Below are positions 2 to 33,373 of a stretch of DNA of 64,000 bases, piece after piece. Origin of the DNA: Nanobdellota archaeon (lineage in GTDB: Archaea; Nanobdellota; Nanobdellia; Pacearchaeales; GW2011-AR1). Each line of letters starts with the position of its first letter. Position 1 is the stretch's first letter. The position numbers and the translations under genes were made by a program. The DNA lies in assembly GCA_043810695.1 (NCBI GenBank), contig JBDRNV010000009.1, positions 3,675 to 67,674 of the forward strand. The letters are read 5' to 3'. The notes under the pieces were generated by a model. It was not told the origin of the DNA, ran no database searches, and saw only the letters and a list, made by a program, of their open reading frames with translations.

Positions 2-1393
2 TATCCAAATCGAAATTTAAAATTTGTAGAAGTTGATAGATATGTCGGGCCTGGAACAGGGCCTGGTTATGGGCTTCTTTGTTGCAAAGAACATCTACAA
101 TGTCCCTTTATTTTTGCTGTATCAGATACAATAATTCTAGAAGAAATTCCAAAACCAGAAGAAAACTGGTTTGGCATTGCTCCTACAAAAGAAACAGAAA
201 AATATTGTACTCTAAAAATAAAAAATAATCTTGTCTATCAAATTGATGATAAAATAAAATGTGATAATAAATATCTTTTTATTGGTTTAGCAGGTGTTAA
301 AGATTATGAACATTTTTGGAATGCTTTAGAAAGTGATAAGGAATCAATAAAAGGAGAAATTCAGGTTTCAAATGGATTCAAAAAACTAATTGAAAAAAGA
401 CTTATTCCAATAGGATTTACATGGTTTGATACAGGAACTCCTGAAAGCTATAAAGAAGCACATCTTAATTTTTCAGGCGGAGAGAAAAAATTTGATTTCA
501 GTAAGAATAACGAGTTTCTTTATTTTGTCGATGGAAAAGTAATCAAATTCTTTGCAGATTCAGAAATAACAAGAAAAAGAGTTGAACGAGCGAAAAATCT
601 TTTTGGATTAACACCAAAAATTGATGGATACAAGAGCAATTTTTATTCATATAAAAAAATGGATGGACAAGTACTTTATTCAATTTTAAATTCACAGCTA
701 GTAAATGATTTTCTGCAATGGGCAAAAAGAGACTTGTGGAAAGAAATAAATCTTTCTGAAAACGAAAAAAAAGAATTTAAAGAGGCAACTCAAAAATTTT
801 ACCATGAAAAAACAATAAAAAGACTTGAAGAATTTTATAATAAAACCCAGATTAGTGACGATTTTAATATTATAAACGGAGTCCAGGTTCCACCACTGAA
901 AGACTTGTTAAATAAAATTAATTGGGAATATATCTGCAATTCTATTCCCGTAAATTTTCATGGGGATTTACAATTTGATAATATTTTAGTAAGCAGAGAT
1001 GAGAAAAGTCAGTTATCAAAATTTACTTTGCTTGATTGGAGACAGGACTTTGGAGGGCTTATCAATGCAGGTGATTTGTATTATGACCTTTCTAAATTAT
1101 ATGGAGGAATGATAATCTCTTACCAGTTAATAAAAACAGACCAATTTTCTTTTGATATGAGTGGTTCCAGCATACATTATAACTATGTTATAAAAAATGA
1201 TTTGCTTGAAGCAAAAGACGAATATGAATCTTTTATAAAGAAAAATGGTTTTGACTTAAACAAGATAAAGATTATTACTTCTTTGATTTTCCTCAATATG
1301 TCTCCTTTACATCACGAGCCATTTAATTTGATGCTTTATCATCTAGGAAAAAGTATGTTATACAAATCTCTTAAACAAACAGAAAATAAATAA
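2..1393 (+). CDS. bifunctional sugar-1-phosphate nucleotidyltransferase / APH-family sugar kinase (5' end outside window)
   Basis: Frame 2 is open from the window edge into the listed 659..1393 ORF (hand translated, no stops). The N-terminal part ends with FTWFDTGTPESYKEAH, typical of the NTP_transferase fold. The C-terminal part has the kinase catalytic loop HGDLQFDNILV (HxDxxxxN) and LLDWRQDFGG. Confidence 0.75.
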   Translation, partial: YPNRNLKFVEVDRYVGPGTGPGYGLLCCKEHLQCPFIFAVSDTIILEEIPKPEENWFGIAPTKETEKYCTLKIKNNLVYQIDDKIKCDNKYLFIGLAGVKDYEHFWNALESDKESIKGEIQVSNGFKKLIEKRLIPIGFTWFDTGTPESYKEAHLNFSGGEKKFDFSKNNEFLYFVDGKVIKFFADSEITRKRVERAKNLFGLTPKIDGYKSNFYSYKKMDGQVLYSILNSQLVNDFLQWAKRDLWKEINLSENEKKEFKEATQKFYHEKTIKRLEEFYNKTQISDDFNIINGVQVPPLKDLLNKINWEYICNSIPVNFHGDLQFDNILVSRDEKSQLSKFTLLDWRQDFGGLINAGDLYYDLSKLYGGMIISYQLIKTDQFSFDMSGSSIHYNYVIKNDLLEAKDEYESFIKKNGFDLNKIKIITSLIFLNMSPLHHEPFNLMLYHLGKSMLYKSLKQTENK

Positions 1394-1394
1394 A

Positions 1395-2387
1395 ATGTTA
1401 AAATCTAAACTGGGAATTGGTCCACTTAGTACTGAAATAATTGAAGCAATTTTTAGAGTGTCTCATTATAAAAGAAAAGAACTAATGATAATAGCTTCAA
1501 AAAATCAAATAGATTACAATAGTGGTTATGTTAATAACTGGACTACCCAAGATTTTATGGCTTTTATTAATAAAATGAAACAAACTTATCCAAATAGCAA
1601 TGTAAAAATATGCAGAGATCACTGTGGTCCTGGTTTTAATGGAAGATATGGTTTAGAAGACACCTATGCAACCATAAAAGAAGATATAGATTCTGGTTTT
1701 GATCTAATTCATATAGATTTCTGCAATTTTAAAGGAAGCAAGGAAGAACAATTTCAAGAATCTAAAAAAGCAATTGAATATTGTTATAAATTAAATCCCA
1801 GAATTTTAATAGAAGTTGGCACAGATGAAAATTTAGGGACTAATTTTGGATTTATGAATCTTGGAGAAGTAGAAAGAGAATTAAACTTCTTTACACAATT
1901 CTGTAAACCAGAATTTTATGTTGTTCAGACAGGAAGTCTTATCAGAGAAATAAACCAGGTTGGAAATTTCAATAAAGAATTTGTTAAAAAGATTTCACAA
2001 ATTTTAAAATCAAATGGAATTAAACTTAAAGAACACAATGCAGATCATCTATCTAAAGAAGATATTCAATTAAGAGAAGGAATTGTAGATGCAATGAACA
2101 TAGCACCCCAGTTAGGAGTTGTGCAGACTATGATAACCTTTAATAAGTGTTTAATTTATGGGACTGATTTTACTAATTTTTTAAACGAGGTATATGAAAA
2201 AGGAAAATGGAAAAAATGGATGCATAATAATGATTCAGAAAATAAACTTTTATGCTGTATTGTAGCAGGACATTATCATTTTGCCTCTGAAAACTATAAA
2301 AAATTAATAGATAAATTGAATGAGAAAGAGGATATAAAAGAAACTATTATAAATGGAATAGTAGAGGTAATAGATCATTATGCCTAA
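1395..2387 (+). CDS. GatZ/KbaZ-family protein (tagatose-bisphosphate aldolase accessory / hexose-6-phosphate 4-epimerase family)
   Basis: Landmarks line up with E. coli GatZ as recalled from memory: IIASKNQIDYNSGY vs EATSNQVNQFGGY, RDHCGP vs GDHLGP, LIHIDF vs KIHLDAS, VVQTG vs VVQPG, LKEHNADH vs YEAHSTDY, NIAPQLG vs KVGPALT. Confidence 0.7.
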   Translation: MLKSKLGIGPLSTEIIEAIFRVSHYKRKELMIIASKNQIDYNSGYVNNWTTQDFMAFINKMKQTYPNSNVKICRDHCGPGFNGRYGLEDTYATIKEDIDSGFDLIHIDFCNFKGSKEEQFQESKKAIEYCYKLNPRILIEVGTDENLGTNFGFMNLGEVERELNFFTQFCKPEFYVVQTGSLIREINQVGNFNKEFVKKISQILKSNGIKLKEHNADHLSKEDIQLREGIVDAMNIAPQLGVVQTMITFNKCLIYGTDFTNFLNEVYEKGKWKKWMHNNDSENKLLCCIVAGHYHFASENYKKLIDKLNEKEDIKETIINGIVEVIDHYA

Positions 2388-3117
2388 AAATTTAGAAAAT
2401 TTATTTCTGAAAGATAAGAATATCTTAATAACAGGTTCATCAAGAGGAATTGGTGCTGCGACAGCCAGACTTGCTAAAAATTATGGAGCAAATGTTATAT
2501 TACACGGGAAAACAGAATCTTCAAATTTAAAAAAACTAGCTTCGGAACTGAATTCTTCATATATTTTTTGCGATATAACTAATGAAGAAAAAGTAAGGGA
2601 GAGTGTAAATAAATTAGGAAAAATAGAAATTTTAGTTAATTCTGCAGGAATAAATATATCAAAACCATTTCTTAAATTAACAAAGAAAGATTGGTTAGAT
2701 ATTTTTAAAACAAATGTTCTTGGAACAGTTAATTTTTCAAAAGCAGTTATTCCACAAATGCTAGAACGTAAATATGGAAAAATAATAAATTTAGCTTCTG
2801 TAAAGGGTTATTCTTCTGTTTCAGGAAGGCCAGCTTATGCATCTTCAAAAGCAGCAATTATAAATTTAACAGCAAATTTAGCTAGCGAATTTGCTCCATA
2901 TATTTTAGTTAATGCTGTTGCTCCAGGATTTACAGATACAGAAATGACAGAAAGTACAATATCTGTAAGAGTAAAAAAACAAATTGATTCAATACCTCTT
3001 AAGAGAGTGGTTAAGCCAGAAGAAATAGCAGAGGTTATTTTATTTTTAGCAAGCGATAAGTGTAATTATATGACAGGACAAACCATGCTCGTTGATGGAG
3101 GTTATAGCATAAAATAA
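2380..3117 (+). CDS. short-chain dehydrogenase/reductase (FabG-like)
   Basis: TGSSRGIGAATA cofactor loop, NSAG, and catalytic YASSKAA (YxxxK). Overlaps the upstream stop by 8 nt. Confidence 0.9.
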   Translation: MPKNLENLFLKDKNILITGSSRGIGAATARLAKNYGANVILHGKTESSNLKKLASELNSSYIFCDITNEEKVRESVNKLGKIEILVNSAGINISKPFLKLTKKDWLDIFKTNVLGTVNFSKAVIPQMLERKYGKIINLASVKGYSSVSGRPAYASSKAAIINLTANLASEFAPYILVNAVAPGFTDTEMTESTISVRVKKQIDSIPLKRVVKPEEIAEVILFLASDKCNYMTGQTMLVDGGYSIK

Positions 3118-3122
3118 TAAAA

Positions 3123-3593
3123 ATGGCAGAAGAAAAAAAAGATTGGGTATATTATTTGAATGGTGCAAAATTAGTTATCAAACCATGGGGATATGCAACT
3201 ATTGATGGAATTGAAAATGTAGGAGAAATCTGGCTTAATTATCGACAAGGTGAAGAAGTTGGAGATGAACCAAAAAGATATGTAATGAAAAAATTATTTG
3301 TAAGAGCAGGAACAAGATTAAGTTTTCAATATCACCACGAAAAATTAGAAACAAATTATCTGATTAGTGGTGAAATTAAAGTTTTTTTAGAAAATGAAAA
3401 AAGGGAGTTTGAAGAAAGAATTATAGGACCAGATGGAATATGGACAATTCCATGCGGTAGAAAACATAGGGCAACAGCTTTAACAGACATAGTCATGATA
3501 GAATGTTCAACACCTGAAGTTGATGATGTAGTAAGAATTGAAGATGATGCTGGAAGAGGAGATGGGAGGATACAATCAGAGCACGTTAAATAG
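3123..3593 (+). CDS. small cupin, phosphomannose-isomerase type II-like
   Basis: KPWGY near the N-terminus. Cupin motif SFQYHHEKLETNYLISGE and second motif around GRKHRATAL. Confidence 0.7.
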   Translation: MAEEKKDWVYYLNGAKLVIKPWGYATIDGIENVGEIWLNYRQGEEVGDEPKRYVMKKLFVRAGTRLSFQYHHEKLETNYLISGEIKVFLENEKREFEERIIGPDGIWTIPCGRKHRATALTDIVMIECSTPEVDDVVRIEDDAGRGDGRIQSEHVK

Positions 3594-3629
3594 AATAATT
3601 TTTTAAATTTGTGTTTATCAAAATCTAAA

Positions 3630-5051
3630 ATGAAAGTTTTATTTATATATCATAATAGAGTTGAAAGTGGCTATATGCCTCAGTCTATAGCTGTCTTAGG
3701 AGGAATACTACACGATGGAGGAATTGAAACAAAGTTATTTGATACTAGTTTTTATCGGGATATTAATTCTCCATTTACTCAAGATGATAGAAGTATTCGA
3801 GCAAAACAGAAAAAAGGAGGATATCTAATTGGACAGTTAGGTCCTGGAAGAGAAGTTGTGGATTTAAAAGCCAAATTTCGTGAAGAAGTTGAAAATTATC
3901 ACCCAGATTTAGTTGCAGCTACTTCTACCTCTTTTGAATTTAATTCTTTATTAGATTTTGTAACACCAACAACAAGTGAAATGAAAATACCTTTTTTAGT
4001 TGGAGGAGTTCATACCACTGTTGTTCCGGAAAAAGCAATAACAAAAAAAGGACTTGATATACTCTGCATAGATGAAGGAGAAAAACCTTTATTAGAATTA
4101 GCAAGAAGAATAGAAAAAAAGCAGAATTATTATGATATTCCCAATCTTTGGTTTAAAACTCCTGAAGGAAAAATAATAAAAAATAAAATTGGGGCTTTTT
4201 TTGAAAAAATGGATGAGCTTCCTGAATCTGATTGGGATTTAATTGATGAATATCACAGAATTCGTCCATTTGAAAAAGAAATAATGAAATATGGTTGGTT
4301 TGAAACAAGTCGAGGATGTCCTTTTAATTGCAGTTATTGTGTTAACGCAAAATTACATAAAATAAAAAGAGAAGGAGGTATTATGCATCCAGGAACTTAT
4401 CGCTTTTTTAGTCCAGAAGAGATAGTAAAAAGAATGAAAAATAAAAAAGATCAATATGGATATAATCACATACAGTTAATAGACGAAAATATGCCTAACA
4501 TGCCTGTATCAAATCTTGAACATCTTGCAAAATTATTCAAGAATCAAATTGGAGTTGGATTTTTTACACAGGCAAGACCTGAATGTTTTGTTAAAACTCC
4601 TGAAAAAGCAGAAATAATGGCTGAAATGGGATGTAAAATGGTCGGACTTGGAGTTGAAAGTGGAAATTATGAATTAAGAAAAAATATTCTTCATCGTCCT
4701 ATGAAAGACGGAATTGTCGAAAAAGCAGTTGAAAATCTGAAAAAAGCAGGAATAATGGTTGCAACCTATTATATTATAGGATTTCCAACAGAGACAGAAG
4801 AAATGATTAGACAGACAATTGATTTGCATAGAAGAATAAATCCAGATAGATTTTCTGTAAGATTTTTACATCCTTTTCCAGGAACACCAATAAGAGAATT
4901 CTGCGTTAAAAATAAATATATAGCAGAAGATTATGAAGATTTAATACAAGATGCTTCATTTTTTTCAAATCCTGTATTAAATTTACCCTCTCCTCTGCAT
5001 CCAACAAAGGAAAGATTAATAGAATTAAGAAAGGAATTTGAAAACTATTAA
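3630..5051 (+). CDS. B12-binding-domain radical SAM enzyme (class B-like)
   Basis: SRGCPFNCSYC is a CX3CX2C cluster motif. The N-terminal Rossmann-like domain has MKVLFIYHN and LVGGVHTT. I prefer the ATG at 3630 over the TTG at 3609 used in the ORF track. Confidence 0.85.
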   Translation: MKVLFIYHNRVESGYMPQSIAVLGGILHDGGIETKLFDTSFYRDINSPFTQDDRSIRAKQKKGGYLIGQLGPGREVVDLKAKFREEVENYHPDLVAATSTSFEFNSLLDFVTPTTSEMKIPFLVGGVHTTVVPEKAITKKGLDILCIDEGEKPLLELARRIEKKQNYYDIPNLWFKTPEGKIIKNKIGAFFEKMDELPESDWDLIDEYHRIRPFEKEIMKYGWFETSRGCPFNCSYCVNAKLHKIKREGGIMHPGTYRFFSPEEIVKRMKNKKDQYGYNHIQLIDENMPNMPVSNLEHLAKLFKNQIGVGFFTQARPECFVKTPEKAEIMAEMGCKMVGLGVESGNYELRKNILHRPMKDGIVEKAVENLKKAGIMVATYYIIGFPTETEEMIRQTIDLHRRINPDRFSVRFLHPFPGTPIREFCVKNKYIAEDYEDLIQDASFFSNPVLNLPSPLHPTKERLIELRKEFENY

Positions 5052-5093
5052 GTTTCATAAACCTTTAAAAATAAACTTTTTATATTATTATAA

Positions 5094-5516
5094 ATGAAGA
5101 AATTTAAACTAACCCAGAAAGAATTCGATGAAATTTACTCTAAAGTTCCGAGATTATGTGTTGAGTTGATAATAAAAAACAAAAAAGGTATTCTTTTAAC
5201 AAAAAGAAATATAACTCCTGATAGAGGAAAATGGCATCTTCCTGGAGGAACTGTCTTTTTCGAAGAATCCTTAAAAAATACTGTAAAGAGAGTTGCAAAA
5301 CAGGAACTTGGATTAAAAGTTCAACCAATAAAAATTCTTGGTTACATAGAGTTTTTAAGAAAAGGATATCATCCTGTTTCTATTGTTTTTTTAATAAAAG
5401 CAAATTCAGGCAGAATAAAATTAGATTATCAAGCAAGTGATTTTATTTTCACAAAAAAAATTCCAAAAAATACAGTCAAAGAACATAAAAAATTTCTCAA
5501 AGAATATCTAAATTAG
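5094..5516 (+). CDS. Nudix hydrolase, GDP-mannose mannosyl hydrolase (Gmm/WcaH)-like
   Basis: GKWHLPGGTVFFEESLKNTVKRVAKQELGL is a Nudix box with a degenerate REUXEE part (RVAKQE). Lies in a sugar-gene context. Confidence 0.75.
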   Translation: MKKFKLTQKEFDEIYSKVPRLCVELIIKNKKGILLTKRNITPDRGKWHLPGGTVFFEESLKNTVKRVAKQELGLKVQPIKILGYIEFLRKGYHPVSIVFLIKANSGRIKLDYQASDFIFTKKIPKNTVKEHKKFLKEYLN

Positions 5517-5536
5517 AACTCCTTAAGTGAAAGAAA

Positions 5537-7324
5537 TTAATAATCTTTTATAGAATATCCACTTTTTCTTCCAAACCAGACCACTCTTTTGGCATATTCT
5601 TTTATATCCCCCTTAAATTCATCAGGAGTCCTCAATCTTGACATTTGTCCAGTAATGACTTCTTGGGGGATAGAAATTCCAAATTTTCTTTTTACCATCT
5701 CACTAACTTCATTGTAAAATCTTTCTTTGTCTCCGGTCATTATATTCAAAAAAGAAAGTTCTTCAAAAGGCCAAGATATATCTCCATACTTACTATTTAT
5801 TTTTCCCCATTGTCCTCTATTCGAGTCACTTATAATTTTATCTAAGCTTCTTTTTGTTTCAGCTACTTCTATACCAACAATTGTTTCAGGATTTTCTGAA
5901 ATCAAACCTTCGTAGAAACTTCTGTATGAAACCCCCTGGCTATTTAAGTGAATAGCAATATCTTGGGTTAACCCAAGAGAGTGGAATCCCTGAATTGCCC
6001 ATCCAAAAAGATACGCCTTTTTAAAATCTTCAACAGGCATAGCATCTGTTGCTATTGCATATAACGTTTTTTCTTGTATAAGGTCTGTTCCAGAAGTTGA
6101 ATGGTTTTGTAATATAGGAGAATCTATGAGTTGTATTCCATATCTTTTTATATATGAGAGGTGACTCATCTCTGAATTTGGCAAAATCATACACTGATAA
6201 ATATTTATTCCCATATGTTGTCCACCTTCGAGTAATTTTTCAAGACCACCAACAAAGGTCTCATATGTTTCTTCTGGAAGAGGCAAAATAATTTCTGTGT
6301 AAGTAGGAATGCCTGCATTTTTATATCTTTTATAATTTTCATGAGGATGTTTTATATTTGTCCTATGTACAGCCTTTAAAGTTTTTTCATGTAAGCTTTG
6401 AAGAGCCATGGTAATTCCCATATCCATTTTTGCTCTATTCAACTTTTGTGCAGTACTGAAAATTCTTTCATGAACATTTTTTGCCCAATTTGCCCTTAAT
6501 TGTTTTGGATACCCTGTTTTTTGATTAAGCCAAATTAAATAGTCTATTAAAACTTCATCTCTAGGAAAAAGCATGAAGTTTGCATCTGCATTATAAACAA
6601 ATTCAATCTTATGATTTGCTATCCAATCATATTCTGCCTTTACTCTCTTATCAGAAAATTGCTCAATATGGTGATATATTGTAGATCCCCAGTCACAAAA
6701 ATCACATGAATACGGACACCCTCGATGTGTTTCTGATGTTACATTGAAACCAAGTTCTTGATGAGCGCTCATTAATTCGTCAAAAATCCCATATAAATAT
6801 GGAGAAGGAATTCTTTTCAACTTTTGCTTATCAGCTCTTTCCTGTGCCTTAGTTTTTACAGAAACACCATTCCTATTAAAGGTAATTCCTCTAACTTGAG
6901 AATAATCTGGATTTTCCTTTCTTCTTTCTCTTAAGATATCTGTAAAGGTAATTTCTCCTTCTCCGTGAACAAGAATATCTATATAAGGATGACCTTGAAA
7001 AAACCCATCAGACCAATTAGGAACTTGCGGACCTCCCATAACGATCAAAGAACCTGGATTTTGTCTTCTGATTTCTTGTGCTAATGCTTTGTTCCATTCC
7101 CAATTCCATACATAACTTGATATCCCGACAACATTTGGATTATCCATAGCTGCAACAATCTTAGAGGGGTCCCCCCTCAAAAATATAGGACTTACGAATT
7201 TATAATCTTCTTTCAAGTCTGGCTGTACCATGGCATTTGCTTGAACAATTCCTGCTGAATAAGGAAGCCAAGCATTTCCTCCATAGATGTGATTAACCTG
7301 TGCTAATTGTACCTTTCGCACCAT
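5537..7324 (-). CDS. B12-binding-domain radical SAM enzyme (class B-like), 595 aa
   Basis: HRGCPYSCDFCDWG (CX3CX2C). The N-terminal domain has WLPYSAGIVQA, IVMGGPQVP and HGEGE, typical of the cobalamin-binding module of BchE/P-methylase-type radical SAM proteins. Confidence 0.85.
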   Translation of the reverse strand: MVRKVQLAQVNHIYGGNAWLPYSAGIVQANAMVQPDLKEDYKFVSPIFLRGDPSKIVAAMDNPNVVGISSYVWNWEWNKALAQEIRRQNPGSLIVMGGPQVPNWSDGFFQGHPYIDILVHGEGEITFTDILRERRKENPDYSQVRGITFNRNGVSVKTKAQERADKQKLKRIPSPYLYGIFDELMSAHQELGFNVTSETHRGCPYSCDFCDWGSTIYHHIEQFSDKRVKAEYDWIANHKIEFVYNADANFMLFPRDEVLIDYLIWLNQKTGYPKQLRANWAKNVHERIFSTAQKLNRAKMDMGITMALQSLHEKTLKAVHRTNIKHPHENYKRYKNAGIPTYTEIILPLPEETYETFVGGLEKLLEGGQHMGINIYQCMILPNSEMSHLSYIKRYGIQLIDSPILQNHSTSGTDLIQEKTLYAIATDAMPVEDFKKAYLFGWAIQGFHSLGLTQDIAIHLNSQGVSYRSFYEGLISENPETIVGIEVAETKRSLDKIISDSNRGQWGKINSKYGDISWPFEELSFLNIMTGDKERFYNEVSEMVKRKFGISIPQEVITGQMSRLRTPDEFKGDIKEYAKRVVWFGRKSGYSIKDY

Positions 7325-7418
7325 GTTTATTTTATAAATACTGGAGATTTCCTCTAGAAAAGCTTAAAAAAAACTCCTTTATAATACTTATGATAAATAA
7401 TTTTACTTCTTACAAACA

Positions 7419-7426
7419 TTTATATT
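7419..7426 (+). promoter_or_regulatory. TATA-like box (tttatatt) about 27 nt upstream of the 7449 ATG
   Basis: The spacing matches an archaeal TATA-to-TSS distance, implying a leaderless mRNA. Confidence 0.35.
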
Positions 7427-7448
7427 CTGAACTTTTTATCTTTTTCAT

Positions 7449-8204
7449 ATGAAAGCTGTAATACTCTGCGCAGGAAAAGGCGAAAGACTAATACCTCTGA
7501 CAAATAAAATTCCAAAATCAATGATACTTATTAATAACAAGCCTATTTTGGAATATTTAATCTTACTATGCAAAAAACATGGCATAAATGAAATTTTTGT
7601 CAGCACTTCCTATATGTCAGAAGTCATTAAAAATTATTTTGGAGACGGATCAAAATGGGATGTTAAAATTAAATACTCTGTTGAAAAAGAAGATGAATTG
7701 CCCGGAACCGCAGGAGCCATAAAAAAGTTTAGGCAATTTTTAGATGAAACCTTTTTTGTTATCTATGGAGACAATATTACAAATCTTAATTTGACTAAAA
7801 TGCTGGACTTTCACCATTCAAAAAAAGGATTAGGAACTATTTTTGTTTATAGAGAGCCTCTTGTTGATGAAAAAAGCACTCCCGCAATAGTTGCAGTTGA
7901 TTCAAGCAGCCAAATTTTTGATTTGATAGAAAGACCCGTAGCATCTGACAAAGAAAGATTGGAAAAAATAACTCCTGATCAGAAATATATGAATTCTGGA
8001 ATTTATGTTCTTGAACCAAGAATTTTTAATTTTATTCCAAAAAAACCCTCAGACTTCATGGTGGACATCTTTCCAGAATCAATGAAAAGCAAGAAACTTT
8101 TTGCTTTTAGAGATAATCCTTACATCCGTGAAGTCGGAATATTTTTAAGATTAAATAAAGCAAAAGAAGAGATTGAATCAGGACAGATTTCTCTTGATTT
8201 ATGA
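7449..8204 (+). CDS. sugar-1-phosphate nucleotidyltransferase
   Basis: MKAVILCAGKGERLIPLT (GxGxRL loop) and YGDNIT. About 250 aa, typical of RmlA/ManC-type N-terminal domains. Confidence 0.85.
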   Translation: MKAVILCAGKGERLIPLTNKIPKSMILINNKPILEYLILLCKKHGINEIFVSTSYMSEVIKNYFGDGSKWDVKIKYSVEKEDELPGTAGAIKKFRQFLDETFFVIYGDNITNLNLTKMLDFHHSKKGLGTIFVYREPLVDEKSTPAIVAVDSSSQIFDLIERPVASDKERLEKITPDQKYMNSGIYVLEPRIFNFIPKKPSDFMVDIFPESMKSKKLFAFRDNPYIREVGIFLRLNKAKEEIESGQISLDL

Positions 8205-9128
8205 TTGCAAGTAATTTTCTAATTTCAATTCTTCCCTCAAAAAAATTCCTTGTTTTAGCAATCCAATACAAAAAGCATAATCTGCCTTTTTAAATTGGTA
8301 TTCTTCATGTACATACATATGTCCTGCAGTGTGAGCAGCCCCTAATTTTTTCCCAGAACTTCCCTTAAAAGGAACAATTAAAACATCTTTATCTCCTTGT
8401 ATAATTGTATGTGGTACAGAATTTAGTCCATTTGATTTCGGATGTTTTTTTTGCAAAGATTTCAAAAAAAATTCTATTCTCCCAAAATCATGAATATCAA
8501 ATATAAGATGGGCAAAAGGAAAGTTTGGCATAAATCTAACTCCATCAAATCCTGGTAAATTATCAGTTTCAGCCACTTCAAATCCATATTTATCTCCCGC
8601 TCTGCCATAAATATTGCTCCAATTTATTAATTGCCAATGTTCATGCCTTGGAAATGTTGCTCCTGCTCCCTCTGTTTGATGAAAGAATAAATATCCTGTT
8701 TTAACACAAAGATTAGAAATTGTTTCTAAATCTCCTTTTAGAGTTCCAATATGTTTAGTAGTATACATTGGTCTCTCATTTTTTGTAATTGCCAAGCATG
8801 CGCCATGTGTTGAGGGGTATTCATTTGGGGTAACTATAAAATCTTTTAAAATTCTTTCAGGAAATAAATTTCTTCTTAAATCAACTTGAGCTTCACTAGC
8901 AACTCTACATAAAGGACATGTATCAACATTTTTTTCAGAAGGCCTTTTTTTTCTATATGGGCTATAAATAACTCCAAAAGTATAACTGGATTTTCTTGTT
9001 TTATCACAAACTATTTTAACAGGCATATCATATGCTTCTTCCGGAATTCTCATTAATTCTGCTGCTAAATCCCATCTTTGTAAAACTGCTTTATTTATAC
9101 CAGAATATTTTTTAGCCATAACAATCAC
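8199..9128 (-). CDS. GalT-like HIT-superfamily nucleotidyltransferase/phosphorylase
   Basis: CPLC Zn-type motif, VTPNEYP, and FFHQTEGAGATFPRHEHWQL containing the HxHxQ active-site motif of galactose-1-P uridylyltransferase-branch HIT enzymes. The start may be the MAKKYSG Met at 9119. Confidence 0.55.
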   Translation of the reverse strand: MIVMAKKYSGINKAVLQRWDLAAELMRIPEEAYDMPVKIVCDKTRKSSYTFGVIYSPYRKKRPSEKNVDTCPLCRVASEAQVDLRRNLFPERILKDFIVTPNEYPSTHGACLAITKNERPMYTTKHIGTLKGDLETISNLCVKTGYLFFHQTEGAGATFPRHEHWQLINWSNIYGRAGDKYGFEVAETDNLPGFDGVRFMPNFPFAHLIFDIHDFGRIEFFLKSLQKKHPKSNGLNSVPHTIIQGDKDVLIVPFKGSSGKKLGAAHTAGHMYVHEEYQFKKADYAFCIGLLKQGIFLREELKLENYLQS

Positions 9129-9195: not shown

Positions 9196-11217
9196 TTACT
9201 TTAGATTTATATTTATTATATTTGATACCCTTTGGGCAATATCTACACAGGTGACGACTTTTCCTGAGAAAACAGTAATTAGTCCTTTTCCATAATTTGT
9301 AATTTCGCTTGGTCTTTCATCTGTGTCTTCAATATTTGCTTTTATAGCCCTTATTACATAAATTGGGCGGATTATTCTTGCTTCTTTTAATATAGGAAAA
9401 TCTGCAATAGCGGCTTTTAAGATATTCTCCTGATTTGATTTTATATTGGAAAGCATAACTTCTGGATCAAGATTATCTGATACGAAATCGCTTATTACAG
9501 ATTCTCTTATATGCACTAAAGTAAATCTTCCTTCTTCTGCCCTTGGCATTATAGTACTAAATTGTCCATCAAATATTGATAAACCAAGTTTCTCTTTTAT
9601 AGGAAGTTCAATCTCAATCATTTCAACTAATTCATAAAGAGTATCTTTTCTAGGAAGACCGAACCACTTATTGAAATTATTGAAGTTATGGTATGTTGCG
9701 TTTATTACAAAATCAAACTCTTCTTCTAAATTTCCTAAAGGAGATTCTATTTTTAATATTTTTTTATTATTTTTTATCTCTCCACCTATTATTTTATTAT
9801 TGAGCTTAACTTTGACACTTGAACTTTTTAATTTTTCTTTTATTATTTCAAGCATTTTTTTAGGATCATATGCATATTCCGCAACTTTGACAATCATAGA
9901 AACTTTTTCTTTATTTATGAGATTATCATCAATATTAATAATTTCATAAGGAAGCCCTAGTTCTTCGCAGAATTTTAAGTAATTTCCAGGAGTTGTTTTA
10001 CTATCTTCTTTTGCTATTGCATGATAATGATTAAAAGGTCTTATTATGCATGCCCCATATTCTCTTTCAAAACTTTCTCTTGATTTTAGGCATTCAATTG
10101 CTGTTCCCTTACTTCTAGGATAATGATACCCTCCGTGATGTCTTAAATGATTGTTTGTGGATGCTCCAGAAAGAAGCTCTCCTGAACGTTCATACAAAGT
10201 GACTCTGAAGTTTTTTGAAAGCTCCAATGCTATTGAACTTCCAAATATTCCTCCTCCTATAACAGCTATTTTAGTGTTTTCCTTTTCAGGATTATTTTGA
10301 CATTTTTTCTGGACAATATATTCAGAAATAACCTTTTCTGCAAGTGCAATGTTTTCCAAAATATCTTTCTTACAAACTAAAGAGGTACCTGTTCCTTTTA
10401 CTCCTTCCAAAAATTTTCTTATGGAAACTTTAAGAGGATCTTCCACTTCAAAACTTCTCTTATTCCCTATGAAAGCTTGTTTATATCCTGGCCCAATATC
10501 TCTTCTGAATGATTCCCCATTCAAAGAAAAAATAATTTCTCCCGGCTTTTTTACTCTTAACTTAAAATCATATCTCACATCACATTCTGTTTCCTGATTC
10601 TTGAACCTGAATTTTATTGTTATAAAATCCTCCTCTTTTGACAGAAATTTTATATCATCAATCATCCCTTTTGGAATTAATCCTATTAAAACACTATTTG
10701 CATGCGGCAAAAAGCTCTTAATCATATCAATCCCTCTTTCTGCTGGCTCCATATACATTGAAATGCTTTTTAGTTTTTCCAGATCAGGATATTTTTTGAA
10801 ATAATCCACAATCGAAGCCCATTGCGTATTTACTGTTAGAATCTTTTTTCTTTTTTCAGCAAGATTAAAAAGTTCTTCCACAATCTTATAATTATCTTCG
10901 TGACTATCAACAAAAGGCTTTTCACAGATTACATGTAAGTTGTTTTCTAAACAAATCCTCACTTGACTTTCATGTAGTTCTGGAGGAGTACAAATTGAAA
11001 CCACATCTAATCTTTCCCATTTTATCATTTCCTCAATTTTGTAGTACGGTCTTACATTAATACCGAACTCTTTTTTTAATTCTTCTGCAGTTTTTGAGGA
11101 ACTTTCTCTTGTACTGCCCAAAATTGCAACAACCTCTGCCCCACACTGTGAGAACTCTTTCACATGATATTTTCCAATTTTTCCAGCACCTAATACTGCA
11201 ACTCTTAATTTCTCCAT
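9196..11217 (-). CDS. fusion: Gfo/Idh/MocA-type NAD sugar dehydrogenase (N-terminal) + FAD-dependent oxidoreductase (C-terminal, DAO/LhgO-like)
   Basis: N-terminus: MEKLRVAVLGAGKIGKYHV and HVICEKP (EKP motif). From about aa 315: KIAVIGGGIFGSSIALEL followed by SGASTNNHLRHHGGYHYPRS, resembling the hxSxxNSGVIHxGxYY stretch of hydroxyglutarate-oxidase-type flavoenzymes. Confidence 0.7.
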   Translation of the reverse strand: MEKLRVAVLGAGKIGKYHVKEFSQCGAEVVAILGSTRESSSKTAEELKKEFGINVRPYYKIEEMIKWERLDVVSICTPPELHESQVRICLENNLHVICEKPFVDSHEDNYKIVEELFNLAEKRKKILTVNTQWASIVDYFKKYPDLEKLKSISMYMEPAERGIDMIKSFLPHANSVLIGLIPKGMIDDIKFLSKEEDFITIKFRFKNQETECDVRYDFKLRVKKPGEIIFSLNGESFRRDIGPGYKQAFIGNKRSFEVEDPLKVSIRKFLEGVKGTGTSLVCKKDILENIALAEKVISEYIVQKKCQNNPEKENTKIAVIGGGIFGSSIALELSKNFRVTLYERSGELLSGASTNNHLRHHGGYHYPRSKGTAIECLKSRESFEREYGACIIRPFNHYHAIAKEDSKTTPGNYLKFCEELGLPYEIINIDDNLINKEKVSMIVKVAEYAYDPKKMLEIIKEKLKSSSVKVKLNNKIIGGEIKNNKKILKIESPLGNLEEEFDFVINATYHNFNNFNKWFGLPRKDTLYELVEMIEIELPIKEKLGLSIFDGQFSTIMPRAEEGRFTLVHIRESVISDFVSDNLDPEVMLSNIKSNQENILKAAIADFPILKEARIIRPIYVIRAIKANIEDTDERPSEITNYGKGLITVFSGKVVTCVDIAQRVSNIININLK

Positions 11218-11220
11218 TTT

Positions 11221-12096
11221 TTAGGTTATCCTTTCTTCAAATATTTTAATTAATTTTTCAGTATGTTCCTTCCATGTTATCTTGCTCTCTTCCATCCACT
11301 TTCTATAATTCCTTTTTTTTGAATTTTTTATAGCTTCTTCAAGATTTTTAAAATTTTCAATTTTATCAAAAGGGAATTTGTATCCTTCTGCGTACATGTT
11401 TCCAACTATTATTGGAATTCCTGCAGCCATAGCCTCCATATAGGTAACCCCTCCACCAGCCTCTTTGAAAGGAAGGCTGACAAAAATCTTGCATTTATTA
11501 TAGAATTCATTCATATTCATTGGAATAGTTCTTTCTGCAATTATTAAAGGAATATTTAGTCTTTTTCCAATCTCAATAATCTTTTGTTTTGTTAAATTTT
11601 CAGAAGGTTTATAGGTCCAACCCAAATAAATCCTTTTTTTACCAAGTGGTCTGAATTCATTCATATCTACGCTTGTAGCCACTAATGTAGATTTTCTATA
11701 CCTTCTACTATTATTTCTATCTCCAGTAAGCAACCTTTTTCCTATGAGATGCCCAACTATAAATTGGATAAAAAATCCTTTGCCTTTTTGAGTGGCATGG
11801 AAAAAACAAAAATGTTTTTTCTTAAAAATAGGATAAGGAAATAGAAGAGGCAGTGCAAGGTTCCAGTCTTGAGTGTATATTATGTCATAATTCTTATCCT
11901 TCATTATCTTTTTTAATTTTTTTCTTAAAGGAAAAATTGATTGTGTAGTGTTTCTAAGATTTAAATACTCTTTCCTTGAAATTATATCCACACTATGTCC
12001 TTTTTTTTCAAATTCTTTAGAAATATTCTGTAAAAGAGTTTCAACCCCTCCGAAACATTTCTCTTTTACTAAAACAAGAATTTTCATTAATCTCAA
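11221..12096 (-). CDS. glycosyltransferase, GT-B (GT1/GT4-like)
   Basis: C-terminal FKEAGGGVTYMEAMAAGIPIIV (the E..G...EAmA.G.P motif). A likely start is MKILVLV at 12087. Confidence 0.7.
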   Translation of the reverse strand: MRLMKILVLVKEKCFGGVETLLQNISKEFEKKGHSVDIISRKEYLNLRNTTQSIFPLRKKLKKIMKDKNYDIIYTQDWNLALPLLFPYPIFKKKHFCFFHATQKGKGFFIQFIVGHLIGKRLLTGDRNNSRRYRKSTLVATSVDMNEFRPLGKKRIYLGWTYKPSENLTKQKIIEIGKRLNIPLIIAERTIPMNMNEFYNKCKIFVSLPFKEAGGGVTYMEAMAAGIPIIVGNMYAEGYKFPFDKIENFKNLEEAIKNSKKRNYRKWMEESKITWKEHTEKLIKIFEERIT

Positions 12097-27986: not shown

Positions 27987-28114
27987 TTTTTATTTATTAA
28001 ACTTCAATTCCCATCTCTGTTGAGATTATTAACTTTTTAATTATTTTATATATCATTAATTCTGTTTATTTAACATCTTTTATTTTATTATCTAATTATA
28101 ATCTCATTATATCA

Positions 28115-28621: not shown

Positions 28622-28623
28622 TT

Positions 28624-29040: not shown

Positions 29041-29041
29041 T

Positions 29042-30354: not shown

Positions 30355-30357
30355 TTT

Positions 30358-32202: not shown

Positions 32203-32213
32203 TTTCTTAAAAT

Positions 32214-32594: not shown

Positions 32595-32595
32595 T

Positions 32596-33372: not shown

Positions 33373-33373
33373 T

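What the first reader, a model, noticed from the sequence alone, without database searches (positions are those of the whole stretch)
2..9128. Uncharacterised nucleotide-sugar salvage/tailoring locus with two cobalamin-type radical SAM enzymes next to the AglB island
Nine back-to-back genes make up this locus. They are an NTP-transferase/APH-kinase fusion, a GatZ/KbaZ-family protein, an SDR, a small PMI-type cupin, a B12-domain radical SAM, a Gmm-like Nudix, a second B12-domain radical SAM, a second sugar-1-P nucleotidyltransferase and a GalT/HIT-like enzyme. The set matches no textbook NDP-sugar route I can name: there is no RmlBCD, no GmhA/HddA/GmhB, no NeuB/PseI-type synthase and no aminotransferase. 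Class B radical SAM enzymes acting on sugars are known from antibiotic pathways (GenK, GenD1, Fom3-type C-methylation). To my knowledge they are not known from archaeal protein glycosylation. The locus directly abuts the glycosyltransferase/AglB island. A radical-modified (for example C-methylated) glycan sugar made from scavenged hexose is therefore a plausible product. This is my best candidate for an undescribed system in this window.
Basis: partly seen in the sequence, partly recalled or inferred. Interest (0 to 1): 0.8.

Follow-up and report, generated by a model that had tools for sequence, protein, structure and literature searches.

The report
Mosaic sugar-tailoring genes beside archaeal AglB
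The nine genes are real and uncharacterised, but they are at least three separately inherited sugar-activation and radical-methylation modules placed next to the N-glycosylation genes of a tiny DPANN archaeon, not one pathway; one module is an undescribed cassette shared by archaea and bacteria.

Summary
g9, which has no Pfam or NCBIfam hit, folds as a GalT/Apa2-type HIT enzyme. The contig is from a Nanoarchaeota (DPANN) MAG.

The nine genes are not co-conserved. They resolve into modules:
- **Module A (g1-g4).** An NT/kinase fusion, a GatZ-like protein, an SDR and a PMI-like cupin. With a KdsC-type phosphatase that would lie just left of the window, this is a cassette found in DPANN, CPR and other bacteria. 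Gene fusions tie its parts together. Its accessory enzymes vary.
- **g5.** A DPANN-restricted B12 radical SAM enzyme that travels with this cassette.
- **Module B (g7).** g7 is a TokK/CysS-like cobalamin radical SAM enzyme, probably a C-methylase. It travels with g10 (GFO/DAO), g11 and g16, which lie outside the reported interval.
- **Module C (g9).** g9 belongs to a 15-member family. It is always found near a nucleotidyltransferase and a radical SAM enzyme, and usually near a GT9.

My best reading is that the modules make nucleotide-activated, radically tailored sugars from sugar phosphates for the adjacent AglB glycan. That is de novo synthesis, not salvage. The products are unknown and no literature describes the system. 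I rate it a new variant of a known kind, interest about 0.6.

The parts
2..1393 (+). g1: fusion of a LicC/RmlA-type nucleotidyltransferase with an APH/choline-kinase-like kinase. About 82 N-terminal residues are cut off by the window edge. Core of module A.
   Evidence: Searches give NTP_transf_3 plus EcKL/APH in the full-length orthologues. In one search the NT domain's best PDB match is LicC 1jyk (E 1e-10), then RmlA-type 3hl3 (E 4e-9). In one search HGDxxxxN and DWR are invariant. It lies next to g2 in 67 of 80 loci and is fused to g2 in P0333 and P0404.
1395..2387 (+). g2: GatZ/KbaZ-like class II aldolase-fold TIM barrel. Probably a ketose-phosphate 4-epimerase or aldolase. Core of module A.
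   Evidence: Pfam PF08013 scores 30.4 bits. A profile search against the PDB finds GatZ 2fiq at E 5e-13. The AlphaFold model has pLDDT 95.5. Foldseek gives GatZ TM 0.83 and class II FBA about 0.55-0.6. The family has 486 cluster representatives at E<=1e-10.
2380..3117 (+). g3: classical (FabG-like) SDR reductase. An accessory part of module A, interchangeable with an AroE-like dehydrogenase in other genomes.
   Evidence: By tblastn it is present in 22 of 80 loci. In the ORF clustering, SDR occurs in 16 loci, the AroE-like gene in 22, and never both (hypergeometric P = 0.0017).
3123..3593 (+). g4: small type II PMI-like cupin, probably a ketose/aldose-phosphate isomerase. Core of module A.
   Evidence: PF01050 scores 28.4 bits against a cutoff of 23.6. 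It is present in 61 of 80 g2 loci and is fused to g2 in P0268. The QYHHEKLE motif resembles the PMI metal site; that comparison is from memory.
3609..5051 (+). g5: B12-binding radical SAM enzyme of an unassigned, DPANN-restricted subfamily (probable start 3630). A lineage-specific tailoring enzyme attached to module A.
   Evidence: Radical_SAM scores 78.8 bits and B12-binding 30.0 bits. No NCBIfam family is reached; the best is HpnJ at 116 bits against a cutoff of 578. About 45 homologues above 50% identity are 460-496 aa long. Orthologues lie next to the cassette in L016 and the P0144 contig, and next to a distant NT-kinase fusion plus cupin in L012.
5094..5516 (+). g6: Nudix hydrolase, weakly Gmm-like. 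A sporadic accessory gene and the last gene of the plus-strand run g1-g6.
   Evidence: PF00293 E 7e-11; NF011963 scores 48 bits against a cutoff of 146. It is near g2 in only 3 of 80 loci and near g7 homologues in 3 of 33 loci.
5537..7324 (-). g7: TokK/ThnK/CysS/KedN5-like cobalamin-dependent radical SAM enzyme, probably an sp3 C-methyltransferase. Module B.
   Evidence: TokK 7kdx E 4.8e-92 over residues 18-485; CysS 9n1b E 2.7e-51. NCBIfam KedN5 scores 254.7 bits against a cutoff of 700. CxxxCxxC is invariant. There are 2098 homologues at E<=1e-10, mostly DPANN and CPR. It travels with g10, g11 and g16.
7449..8204 (+). g8: sugar-1-phosphate nucleotidyltransferase. Module C.
   Evidence: PF00483 E 3e-39. 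Matches to archaeal GlmU, ManC, MurU, HddC and AglF models are all below their cutoffs. It is adjacent to g9 in L001, L010 and L176.
8199..9128 (-). g9: GalT-branch HIT-fold enzyme, closest to Ap4A phosphorylase Apa2 and ADP-glucose phosphorylase (probable start 9119). A rare DPANN family. Module C.
   Evidence: It has no Pfam or NCBIfam hit. Only 15 homologues were found. C68xxC71 and H159-E-H161 are invariant. The AlphaFold model has pLDDT 91.2. Foldseek gives Apa2 E 1e-10 with TM 0.62-0.67, then 1z84, 4qvu and 6k5z.
9196..11217 (-). g10: fusion of a GFO_IDH_MocA dehydrogenase with a DAO-type FAD oxidoreductase. A steady partner of g7, lying outside the reported interval.
   Evidence: It co-occurs with g7 in L001, L004 (as two separate genes), L006, L010, L014 and L054.
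11221..12096 (-). g11: short GT4-type glycosyltransferase, a partner of g7 and g10.
   Evidence: Orthologues of 50-84% identity sit next to g7 and g10 in L001, L004, L006 and L010.
12176..13372 (-). g12: 398-aa protein with no family match. First gene of the minus-strand run g12-g11-g10-g9.
   Evidence: No Pfam or NCBIfam hit. One weak relative (28% identity) in L057.
13485..14606 (+). g13: GT9 (heptosyltransferase-family) glycosyltransferase. Recurs with g9.
   Evidence: PF01075 E 5e-12. GT9 relatives lie near g9 in L001, L010, L008 and L175.
16435..17532 (+). g16: GT1-type glycosyltransferase, a recurrent partner of g7, g10 and g11 (module B), inside the glycosylation island.
   Evidence: PF00534 E 1.2e-22. 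Orthologues of 47-80% identity accompany g7, g10 and g11 in L001, L004, L006 and L014.
19669..22620 (-). AglB/STT3 oligosaccharyltransferase. The anchor of the adjacent glycosylation island (context).
   Evidence: PF21436 scores 28.8 bits and PF02516 23.6 bits. The orthologue in L006 is annotated STT3.

Best explanation
The interval is a junction of three separately inherited modules. All of them supply modified, nucleotide-activated sugars to the adjacent AglB-type surface-glycan machinery of a DPANN archaeon.

**Module A: g1-g4, plus a KdsC-type phosphatase expected just left of the window.** This is a mobile cassette found in both domains. I infer that it builds a nucleotide-activated rare sugar from a ketose phosphate, in these steps:
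1. The GatZ-like enzyme epimerises or re-forms the C3-C4 bond.
2. The PMI-like cupin converts ketose-phosphate to aldose-phosphate.
3. The APH-type kinase phosphorylates C1.
4. The phosphatase removes the distal phosphate.
5. The nucleotidyltransferase domain activates the sugar.
6. The SDR performs a reduction.

This is the logic of NDP-heptose and GDP-octose synthesis, carried out by unrelated enzymes. g5 is a lineage-specific B12 radical SAM tailoring step. It may stand in for the TylC3-like C-methyltransferase found in other versions of the cassette.

**Module B: g7 with g10, g11 and g16.** A TokK-like methylcobalamin radical SAM enzyme probably adds one or more methyl groups to an unactivated carbon of a sugar or glycan intermediate. 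The GFO/DAO oxidoreductase and the two glycosyltransferases handle that intermediate.

**Module C: g8 and g9, with GT9 g13.** g8 attaches a nucleotide. The Apa2/GalT-like g9 exchanges or removes it by phosphorolysis around a radical SAM step, possibly yielding an ADP-type donor for GT9.

**Shown versus inferred.** Shown: folds, family relations, synteny and gene fusions. Inferred: every substrate, the order of steps, and the identity of the products.
For: **Source organism.** g7 is 100% identical to a protein of a Nanoarchaeota MAG.

**Module A**
- Across 80 GTDB genomes carrying g2, g1 lies within 10 kb in 67 and g4 in 61.
- The recurring gene order is [AroE-like] HAD G1 G2 [SDR] cupin [C-MT].
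- Gene fusions link the parts: G1-G2 (P0333), G2-G1 (P0404), G2-cupin (P0268) and G2-C-methyltransferase (P0382).
- The HAD protein is KdsC-type.
- SDR and the AroE-like gene are mutually exclusive (0 of 38 loci have both; P = 0.0017). This indicates that a reduction step is required.
- ROK sugar kinases and GT-B transferases flank the cassette in some bacteria.
- g5 orthologues sit beside the cassette in three further lineages.
- Radical SAM genes and the C-methyltransferase never co-occur around the cassette (0 of 10; P = 0.029).

**Module B**
- g7 matches TokK at E 5e-92 and CysS at E 3e-51.
- g7, g10 and g11 recur together at 54-69% g7 identity in L001, L004, L006 and L010, and g16 joins them in L001, L004 and L006.
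- More distant g7 homologues sit among epimerase/dehydratase, DegT, NeuB, CMP-transferase and GT genes.

**Module C**
- g9's fold is established.
- In all six independent contexts g9 lies next to a nucleotidyltransferase and a radical SAM enzyme, and those radical SAM enzymes come from four different subfamilies. HAD phosphatases lie nearby in L008, L175 and L176. A GT9 lies nearby in five of the six.

**Glycosylation island.**
Against: - No substrate or product has been determined, and no member of any of these families has been characterised.
- G1's nucleotidyltransferase domain is as close to LicC (phosphocholine) as to sugar-1-phosphate enzymes. The kinase domain has no solved relative.
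- The reductase step has no obvious role in a plain NDP-aldose route. It fits a CDP-alditol route better.
- A classical SDR is not the type usually seen acting on NDP-sugars.
- The radical SAM versus C-methyltransferase exclusivity is marginal. It also counts any B12 radical SAM enzyme, not only g5 orthologues.
- g7's solved relatives act on a carbapenem and an aromatic ether, not on sugars.
- g7 scores well below the KedN5 family cutoff.
- g9 has only 15 relatives, so its synteny statistics are small.
- Neighbourhood alone does not prove a link to AglB-dependent N-glycosylation rather than to another surface polymer.
Confidence: 0.45

Rival explanations
1. All nine genes form one salvage and tailoring pathway that takes up a free hexose, activates it in a Leloir-like manner (kinase, then NT or GalT-like exchange), and C-methylates it with the two B12 radical SAM enzymes.
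For: A kinase, two NTs and a GalT-like enzyme are all present. The genes are contiguous and abut the GT/AglB island. Three close relatives (L001, L010, partly L006) keep most of the set together.
Against: Co-conservation fails outside close relatives: near g2 the counts were g8 5, g7 4, g6 3 and g9 0 of 80 loci, with a true g5 orthologue in only one. The genes lie in four transcription directions, and g9 runs with g10-g12. GatZ-like, PMI-like, reductase and phosphatase parts point to de novo synthesis.
Confidence: 0.12
2. Module A makes a CDP-activated polyol or other phospho-alcohol, analogous to CDP-ribitol, CDP-glycerol, CDP-6-glucitol or CDP-choline. This is added to the glycan as a phosphodiester decoration and is not used as a glycosyl donor.
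For: G1's NT domain is closest to LicC, and its kinase is choline/ecdysteroid-kinase-like. A reductase (SDR or AroE-like) is a near-obligatory alternative step. CDP-alcohol phosphotransferase genes sit in the L001 and L010 clusters. Phosphodiesterase/sulfatase-family genes flank the g5 orthologue in L012. A weak RXYLT1-like neighbour occurs in four loci.
Against: The window has no CDP-alcohol transferase, LicD or TagF-like gene. TylC3-like sugar C-methyltransferases, which normally act on NDP-keto-sugars, are partners or fusion partners of the cassette. A GT-B transferase directly follows the cassette in several bacteria.
Confidence: 0.25
3. The radical SAM enzymes have nothing to do with sugars. 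They modify lipids, cofactors or peptides and are merely neighbours of the glycan genes.
For: Characterised relatives of g7 (TokK, CysS, KedN5) and the best model hits of g5 (HpnJ, PhpK, BchE, Mmp10-type) act on non-sugar substrates.
Against: All those matches are far below family cutoffs. The neighbourhoods in DPANN, CPR, Azospirillum and unbinned metagenome contigs are dominated by NDP-sugar and GT genes. No lipid, RiPP precursor or cofactor genes were found next to them here.
Confidence: 0.1
4. g8 and g9 form a housekeeping or proofreading pair. They interconvert common NDP-hexoses (a Leloir-type exchange or ADP-/UDP-glucose phosphorylase) with no mechanistic link to the radical SAM enzyme.
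For: g9's fold relatives include GalT and ADP-glucose phosphorylase. g8 resembles generic sugar-1-phosphate NTs.
Against: The g9 family is tiny and confined to glycan loci. It keeps the same kinds of neighbours (NT and radical SAM, usually GT9, sometimes HAD) even as their families change. That pattern is not expected for a housekeeping enzyme.
Confidence: 0.15

Closest known systems
NDP-heptose (GmhA/HddA/GmhB/HddC) and GDP-octose (LmbR/N/P/K/O) pathways
   Same: The inferred step logic is the same: ketose phosphate, isomerase, 1-kinase, phosphatase, nucleotidyltransferase. In the octose case an aldolase-type C-C step comes first. A GT9-family transferase is nearby.
   Different: None of the enzymes is orthologous. 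A cupin replaces the SIS isomerase. An APH-fold kinase fused to the NT replaces the GHMP kinase. A KdsC-type HAD replaces the GmhB-type. A GatZ-like protein is added, and so is a reductase step. The comparison rests on my knowledge of those pathways and was not tested here.
TokK/ThnK (carbapenem) and CysS (cystobactamid) cobalamin-dependent radical SAM methylases
   Same: g7 aligns with TokK over 470 residues (E 5e-92) and with CysS (E 3e-51). The alignment covers the Cbl-binding and radical SAM domains, and CxxxCxxC is present.
   Different: Identity is about 31-34%. g7 is below the KedN5 family cutoff. It sits in surface-glycan loci of DPANN and CPR organisms, not in antibiotic clusters. Its substrate is unknown.
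Fom1 (cytidylyltransferase) / Fom3 (B12 radical SAM) / FomD in fosfomycin synthesis
   Same: The proposed logic is the same: a nucleotide is attached as a handle, a B12 radical SAM enzyme modifies the nucleotide-linked substrate, and another enzyme removes the nucleotide. The recurring g9 + NT + radical SAM triad fits this.
   Different: There is no PEP mutase or phosphonate gene. The releasing enzyme would be a GalT/Apa2-type HIT protein and not FomD. This is an analogy from memory and was not tested.
GatZ/KbaZ family (tagatose-bisphosphate aldolase subunit; tagatose-6-P/fructose-6-P 4-epimerases)
   Same: The fold matches (TM 0.83 to 2fiq, 0.82 to 3txv). The RDHxGP, HxD and EHxxDY motifs are shared.
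   Different: g2 is about 90 residues shorter, at 330 aa against 420. Identity is about 15%. There is no GatY/KbaY partner. g2 is embedded in, and sometimes fused to, an NT-kinase, cupin and C-methyltransferase context.
Apa2 Ap4A phosphorylase / GalT-like ADP-glucose phosphorylase (HIT branch III)
   Same: The fold matches. An HxHxQ-type motif (HEHWQ) and a CxxC pair are present.
   Different: Identity is 12-16%. No Pfam or NCBIfam model recognises g9. The family is restricted to about 15 DPANN sequences.

Membership tests
Class B (cobalamin-dependent) radical SAM methyltransferases, TokK/CysS/KedN5 type (g7) | CxxxCxxC [4Fe-4S]/SAM motif in a radical SAM core | tested here: met
   PF04055 scores 33.7 bits. 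C203, C207 and C210 are invariant in 27 homologues.
Class B (cobalamin-dependent) radical SAM methyltransferases, TokK/CysS/KedN5 type (g7) | N-terminal cobalamin-binding Rossmann domain | tested here: inconclusive
   PF02310 scores 31.4 bits, just under the 32.1 cutoff. However, the TokK alignment spans residues 18-485, which includes that domain.
Class B (cobalamin-dependent) radical SAM methyltransferases, TokK/CysS/KedN5 type (g7) | Score above the curated KedN5-family threshold | tested here: not met
   NF033712 scores 254.7 bits against a cutoff of 700. g7 is a relative, not a member.
Class B (cobalamin-dependent) radical SAM methyltransferases, TokK/CysS/KedN5 type (g7) | Methylcobalamin-dependent methyl transfer to carbon | not testable with these tools
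   Requires anaerobic reconstitution.
Class B radical SAM (g5) | Radical SAM core plus B12-binding domain, and membership of a characterised subfamily | tested here: inconclusive
   PF04055 scores 78.8 bits. PF02310 scores 30.0 bits, below the 32.1 cutoff. All 33 NCBIfam hits are far below their cutoffs; HpnJ scores 116 against 578 and PhpK 112 against 600.
GalT-branch HIT superfamily (g9) | Duplicated HIT/GalT half-barrel fold | tested here: met
   The AlphaFold model has pLDDT 91.2. Foldseek gives Apa2 E 1e-10 at probability 1.0, then 1z84, 4qvu, 6k5z and 2h39.
GalT-branch HIT superfamily (g9) | Nucleotidyl-accepting histidine motif (HxHxQ/HxHxH) | tested here: met
   H159-E160-H161 are invariant and are followed by W-Q/H.
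GalT-branch HIT superfamily (g9) | Recognition by a curated sequence model | tested here: not met
   No Pfam or NCBIfam hit even at E<=1. phmmer against the PDB finds nothing meaningful.
GatZ/KbaZ family (g2) | Family fold and sequence model | tested here: met
   PF08013 scores 30.4 bits against a cutoff of 26.7, but only over residues 14-111. TM is 0.83 to 2fiq.
GatZ/KbaZ family (g2) | Equivalog status and a GatY/KbaY aldolase partner | tested here: not met
   TIGR02810 scores 28.9 bits against a cutoff of 568.8. No GatY/KbaY-like gene occurs in the window or in the 80 loci.
Type II phosphomannose isomerase cupin (g4) | PMI C-terminal cupin model above threshold | tested here: met
   PF01050 scores 28.4 bits against a cutoff of 23.6. 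The fused relative P0268 scores 44.7 bits. Isomerase activity has not been tested.
NDP-heptose pathway (GmhA, HddA/HldE, GmhB, HddC) | Orthologues of the four enzymes | tested here: not met
   Only g8 and the NT domains give sub-threshold HddC hits. The window has no SIS, GHMP, PfkB or CTP_transf_like gene. The resemblance is one of logic only.
Archaeal AglB N-glycosylation locus | AglB/STT3 plus a dolichol-phosphate GlcNAc-1-P transferase and GTs next to the genes | tested here: met
   STT3/AglB core domains, an AglH-like PF00953 protein and five GTs. Use of the products by AglB has not been tested.

The most novel reading that the evidence does not exclude
Two undescribed systems meet in this interval.

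1. A mobile cassette found in both domains: KdsC-like phosphatase, NT/APH-kinase fusion, GatZ-like enzyme and PMI-like cupin, with swappable reductase, C-methyltransferase or B12 radical SAM partners. It makes a so far unknown nucleotide-activated, possibly branched, sugar used by DPANN archaea, CPR bacteria, SAR11, SAR86 and others.

2. A DPANN-specific unit made of a nucleotidyltransferase, an Apa2/GalT-like enzyme and a B12 radical SAM enzyme, usually with a GT9. In it a nucleotide handle is installed, the substrate is radically alkylated, and the nucleotide is exchanged or removed to give a C-alkylated sugar for the archaeal glycan.

If correct, this would be the first cobalamin radical SAM chemistry in protein or surface glycosylation. 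It would occur in organisms that must scavenge B12.
Probability: 0.3. Interest if true: 0.8.

Novelty: new variant of a known kind. Interest (0 to 1): 0.6.

Why it matters
- DPANN archaea and CPR bacteria have genomes of roughly one megabase and depend on hosts. Even so, they keep several cobalamin radical SAM enzymes inside their surface-glycan loci. That implies their cell-surface sugars carry unusual, costly modifications, probably relevant to host attachment or phage evasion, and that they need to acquire B12.
- The module A cassette is highly conserved. G2 is about 60% identical between archaea and proteobacteria. The cassette occurs in abundant marine and groundwater lineages and has no characterised member. 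Solving it would annotate hundreds of gene clusters and might reveal a new nucleotide sugar.
- g9 defines a new small branch of the GalT/HIT superfamily.
- The work also shows that the apparent nine-gene 'system' is a mosaic. This changes which genes should be expressed together in any experiment.

Tried and rejected
- **Exact-match look-ups.** Look-ups of the window's g7 and of P0001 found no contig. I therefore could not read the sequence left of the window, and the upstream HAD is inferred from relatives.
- **The search for related loci with the 42-sequence g2 alignment.** It failed for lack of a conserved stretch. A 19-sequence alignment worked.
- **Metagenome scan with the g7 alignment.** I used these loci only for a neighbour census.
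- **A specific Nudix (g6) to g7 link.** Adjacency here and in an Azospirillum plasmid suggested it. I rejected it because only 3 of 33 g7-homologue loci have a g6 relative.
- **The radical SAM enzyme next to g9 in L008 as a g7 orthologue.** Rejected. BLASTP gives only 24% identity over 157 residues. It is another subfamily.
- **g10's DAO half as a 2-hydroxyglutarate oxidase recycling the cofactor of a WbpB-like 3-dehydrogenase.** Not supported. The NCBIfam hits are to glycerol-3-phosphate and glycine oxidase types, all weak.
- **The cassette as 5-deoxyribose/methionine salvage for radical SAM by-products, or as a cyclitol route.** Both were considered. Neither has direct support, and the cassette lies among flippases and GTs.
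- **Kinase domain against the PDB.** Even with a 24-sequence profile there was no informative hit.
- **Literature.** Five full-text searches found nothing relevant.
- **Plasmid database.** It yielded only distant relatives: ordinary GatZ, a Sinorhizobium G2-like/cupin/DegT/HAD cluster, and the S. cattleya thienamycin region.

Full report
**1. What is in the sequence**

Nine ORFs occupy 2-9128.
- g1-g6 run on the plus strand with gaps of 42 bp or less, or small overlaps.
- g7 (5537-7324) is alone on the minus strand.
- g8 (7449-8204) is alone on the plus strand.
- g9 (8199-9128) is the last gene of a minus-strand run g12-g11-g10-g9 that begins at 13372.

The reported right border therefore cuts a co-directional gene run. 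The left border is only the window edge, since g1 lacks about 82 N-terminal residues. Full-length orthologues are about 530-545 aa.

The window comes from a Nanoarchaeota (DPANN) MAG. g7 is 100% identical to an NCBI protein of such a MAG on a 78-kb contig. The rest of the window carries SecY, a run of small minus-strand ORFs that looks like a ribosomal-protein operon, FtsZ and the AMP-phosphorylase/R15P-isomerase pair.

**2.

Yes, all nine hold.
- **g1:** NTP_transf_3 plus an APH/EcKL-like kinase. The catalytic HGDxxxxN and DWR residues are invariant in 24 orthologues.
- **g2:** GatZ/KbaZ-like. Pfam gives 30.4 bits over residues 14-111. A profile search against the PDB finds GatZ at E 5e-13. 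A confident model (pLDDT 95.5) superposes on GatZ 2fiq and 3txv at TM 0.82-0.84, and on class II FBP/TBP aldolases at about 0.55-0.6.
- **g3:** a classical FabG-like SDR.
- **g4:** passes the PMI C-terminal cupin threshold.
- **g5 and g7:** each has a radical SAM core and a B12-binding domain. The B12 score is just under the Pfam threshold in both.
- **g6:** a Nudix protein whose best, sub-threshold, match is GDP-mannose mannosyl hydrolase.
- **g8:** a sugar-1-phosphate nucleotidyltransferase.
- **g9:** no Pfam, NCBIfam or PDB sequence match. A model built on its 15 homologues (pLDDT 91.2) matches yeast Ap4A phosphorylase Apa2 (E 1e-10, TM 0.62-0.67). The next matches are the GalT-like ADP-glucose phosphorylase, DUF4931 and a uridylyltransferase.

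The adjoining island is also as described. It holds GT4, GT9, GT2, an FkbM methyltransferase, GT1, an epimerase/dehydratase, UDP-GlcNAc 2-epimerase, AglB and an AglH-like GT4.

**3. Is it one system?**

No. I collected 80 genomes (GTDB species representatives) that encode a g2 relative. I then searched 10 kb on each side for relatives of every window protein.

| Gene | Loci with a relative near g2 (of 80) |
|---|---|
| g1 | 67 |
| g4 | 61 |
| g3 | 22 |
| g5 | 11, of which only L016 (69% identity) is an orthologue; the rest are 24-28% paralogues |
| g8 | 5 |
| g7 | 4 |
| g6 | 3 |
| g9 | 0 |

The few loci that also carry g7 and g10-g16 are close relatives of the window. Six-frame comparison with loci retrieved through g7 and g9 shows different partnerships:
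- g7 travels with g10, g11 and g16. In L004 the GFO and DAO halves of g10 are separate genes.
- g9 travels with g8-type or other nucleotidyltransferases.

**4. Module A, a cassette found in both domains**

*Gene order and distribution.* De novo clustering of all ORFs in the 80 loci gives a recurring order: [AroE-like dehydrogenase] - small HAD - G1 - G2 - [SDR] - cupin - [C-methyltransferase]. The hosts are:
- DPANN archaea: Woese-, Pace-, Nano- and Iainarchaeota.
- Many CPR/Patescibacteria lineages.
- SAR11, SAR86, Bdellovibrionales, other Gammaproteobacteria, Omnitrophota, Planctomycetota, Spirochaetota and Myxococcota.

G2 identity to the window protein is still about 60% in several bacterial loci. 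That fits strong constraint, or transfer between the two domains.

*Gene fusions.* Rosetta-stone fusions tie the parts together: G1-G2 (P0333), G2-G1 (P0404), G2-cupin (P0268) and G2-C-methyltransferase (P0382). Further fusions join G2 to an aminotransferase and to a GFO-type dehydrogenase.

*Accessory genes.*
- The small HAD is KdsC-like, at 63 bits against a cutoff of 107. It occurs in 45-48 loci, normally directly upstream of G1. In this contig it would therefore fall just left of the window.
- SDR (16 loci) and the AroE-like gene (22 loci) never co-occur (P = 0.0017). This is non-orthologous displacement of one required reduction step.
- A TylC3-like C-methyltransferase (Methyltransf_23 plus Methyltransf_14) occurs in 21 loci.
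- A paralogue of the NT domain occurs in 22-23 loci.
- An IMPase/FBPase-family phosphatase occurs in 10-13 loci.
- Flippases, ROK sugar kinases, a GT-B transferase and carbamoyltransferases occur in smaller subsets.

*Inference.* The cassette starts from a sugar phosphate and ends in a nucleotide-linked product that variable enzymes then tailor. The simplest chemistry that uses every core part is:
1. Ketose-phosphate epimerisation or aldol re-formation by the GatZ-like enzyme. From memory, GatZ relatives include tagatose-6-P/fructose-6-P 4-epimerases.
2. Ketose-P to aldose-P conversion by the PMI-like cupin.
3. C1 phosphorylation by the APH-type kinase.
4. Removal of the distal phosphate by the HAD.
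5. Nucleotidyl transfer.

This mirrors NDP-heptose and GDP-octose synthesis using unrelated proteins.

The main alternative is a CDP-polyol or phospho-alcohol donor. It fits three observations: the reductase step, the LicC-like best PDB hit of the NT domain, and the CDP-alcohol phosphotransferases in the L001 and L010 clusters. The window itself has no such transferase.

**5. g5**

g5 reaches no curated radical SAM subfamily. Its close family is small:
- About 45 sequences above 50% identity, 460-496 aa long.
- All named ones come from DPANN.
- Identity drops sharply to 35% or less beyond that group.

Orthologues lie directly beside the cassette in L016 (gene order) and in the P0144 contig, where the order is rSAM-HAD-NT-G1-G2-cupin. 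In L012 an orthologue lies beside a cupin and a distant NT-kinase fusion.

g5 is thus a lineage-specific add-on to module A. B12 radical SAM genes and the SAM-dependent C-methyltransferase never co-occur around the cassette (0 of 10; P = 0.029). That is a weak hint that g5 replaces the methyltransferase.

**6. g7 and module B**

g7 aligns with TokK over residues 18-485 (E 4.8e-92) and with CysS (E 2.7e-51). Its best NCBIfam model is the KedN5 C-methyltransferase family, but at 255 bits against a cutoff of 700. It is 34% identical to a protein encoded on the S. cattleya megaplasmid; from memory I take that region to be the thienamycin (ThnK) cluster. g7 is therefore a relative of these enzymes and not a member of their families.

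The wider family has 2098 members at E<=1e-10, largely DPANN and CPR. Every neighbourhood I inspected is a glycan or nucleotide-sugar locus:
- DPANN loci with g10, g11 and g16.
- A Magasanikbacteria locus with NeuB, DegT, epimerases and six GT2 genes.
- An Azospirillum plasmid with GDP-mannose dehydratase and GT61.
- A census of 125 neighbouring ORFs from 19 metagenomic loci. Epimerase/dehydratase was the most frequent family (7 ORFs), with DegT (3), NeuB (3), CMP-transferase (2) and GT2 (2) also present.

By context that criterion is not met. The nearest characterised enzymes do act on non-sugar natural products.

**7. g9 and module C**

Only 15 homologues were found among 5.8 billion proteins. 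The search is word-seeded, so this is a lower bound. The table lists the six independent contexts.

| Context | g9 identity | Neighbours |
|---|---|---|
| Window, L001, L010 | 71-77% (L001, L010) | NTP_transferase and a g7-type radical SAM enzyme |
| L008 | 41% | Three HADs, CTP_transf_like, and a 591-aa B12 radical SAM enzyme unrelated to g7 |
| L175 | 40% | CTP_transf_like, HAD and a 445-aa radical SAM enzyme |
| L176 | 38% | HAD, an NTP_transferase 58% identical to the first 117 residues of g8, and a 506-aa B12 radical SAM enzyme |

A GT9 relative is present in five of the six. The kinds of partner persist while their families change. This is the strongest sign of a functional unit in the whole interval.

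I infer a nucleotide-handle logic analogous to Fom1/Fom3/FomD, with two possible forms:
- The NT installs a nucleotide, the radical SAM enzyme acts on the nucleotide-linked substrate, and g9 exchanges or phosphorolyses the nucleotide.
- Alternatively, g9 produces the ADP-type donor that GT9 enzymes typically use. Its best fold matches are adenylyl-transferring enzymes.

Neither form has been tested.

**8. Comparison with known systems and novelty**

No gene passes a curated equivalog threshold. Five literature searches returned nothing on cobalamin radical SAM enzymes in DPANN or CPR glycan loci, or on this cassette. The components belong to known superfamilies and the overall purpose, nucleotide-sugar synthesis and tailoring, is of a known kind. 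I therefore rate the finding a new variant of a known kind. The new elements are:
- The composition of the cassette and its distribution across both domains.
- The g9 family.
- The placement of TokK-like methylases in surface-glycan loci.

**9. Verdict**

An uncharacterised link between glycans and B12 radical SAM tailoring is plausible.
- 'One nine-gene salvage locus' is wrong. The interval holds three modules whose true partners partly lie outside it, and the chemistry looks de novo.
- Confidence in the modular, nucleotide-sugar reading is about 0.45. Substrate-level details are speculative.
- Interest is about 0.6.

Noticed in passing
homologues of g7 (window 5537-7324): P0114 and P0119: Two TokK-like homologues are much longer (1035 and 839 aa). 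They carry intein and LAGLIDADG domains (PF14890, PF14528), meaning inteins inserted into a B12 radical SAM gene.
   Followed up: no
window 9196-11217 (g10); L004 11864-13897: The GFO_IDH_MocA + DAO fusion of the window is encoded as two adjacent genes in a relative with 48% identity. This is a clear fusion/fission pair. The function of an NAD-dehydrogenase/FAD-oxidase tandem next to a radical SAM methylase is unexplained.
   Followed up: partly
window 12176-13372 (g12): A 398-aa protein with no Pfam or NCBIfam match and only one weak relative among all fetched loci. It is the first gene of the run that ends in g9. By eye its sequence looks GT-B-like.
   Followed up: partly
window 24715-25533 and 42311-43801: An IF-2B-family protein, probably ribose-1,5-bisphosphate isomerase, and an AMP/pyrimidine-nucleoside phosphorylase-like protein. 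Together they form the archaeal AMP salvage pair often reported in DPANN.
   Followed up: no
window 26547-40364: SecY, followed by a long run of small minus-strand ORFs with strong negative GC and AT skew. It looks like the ribosomal protein operon. FtsZ lies at 52347-53429 and a CARDB-domain surface protein at 58060-59916.
   Followed up: no
L173 (Sinorhizobium plasmid pSS05631a) 9022-12498: A cultured rhizobium carries a distant G2-like gene (30% identity, annotated tagatose-6-phosphate kinase), followed by a cupin (38% to g4), a DegT aminotransferase and a HAD. A Gfo/Idh/MocA gene, a PIG-L deacetylase and a sugar-phosphate isomerase lie nearby. This could be a tractable model for the G2-cupin pair.
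   Followed up: partly
L006 17684-19111; window 2-484: A HAD(beta-PGM-like)-NT fusion in a relative has an NT domain 60% identical to the NT domain of g1. Free-standing NT paralogues of about 236 aa accompany the cassette in 22-23 loci. The cassette therefore often carries two related nucleotidyltransferases.
   Followed up: partly
L010 1424-6046: The relative with the closest g9/g8/g7 arrangement also carries PfkB, two CTP_transf_like genes, an ARMT1-like gene and a CDP-alcohol phosphotransferase. None of these is present in the window.
   Followed up: partly
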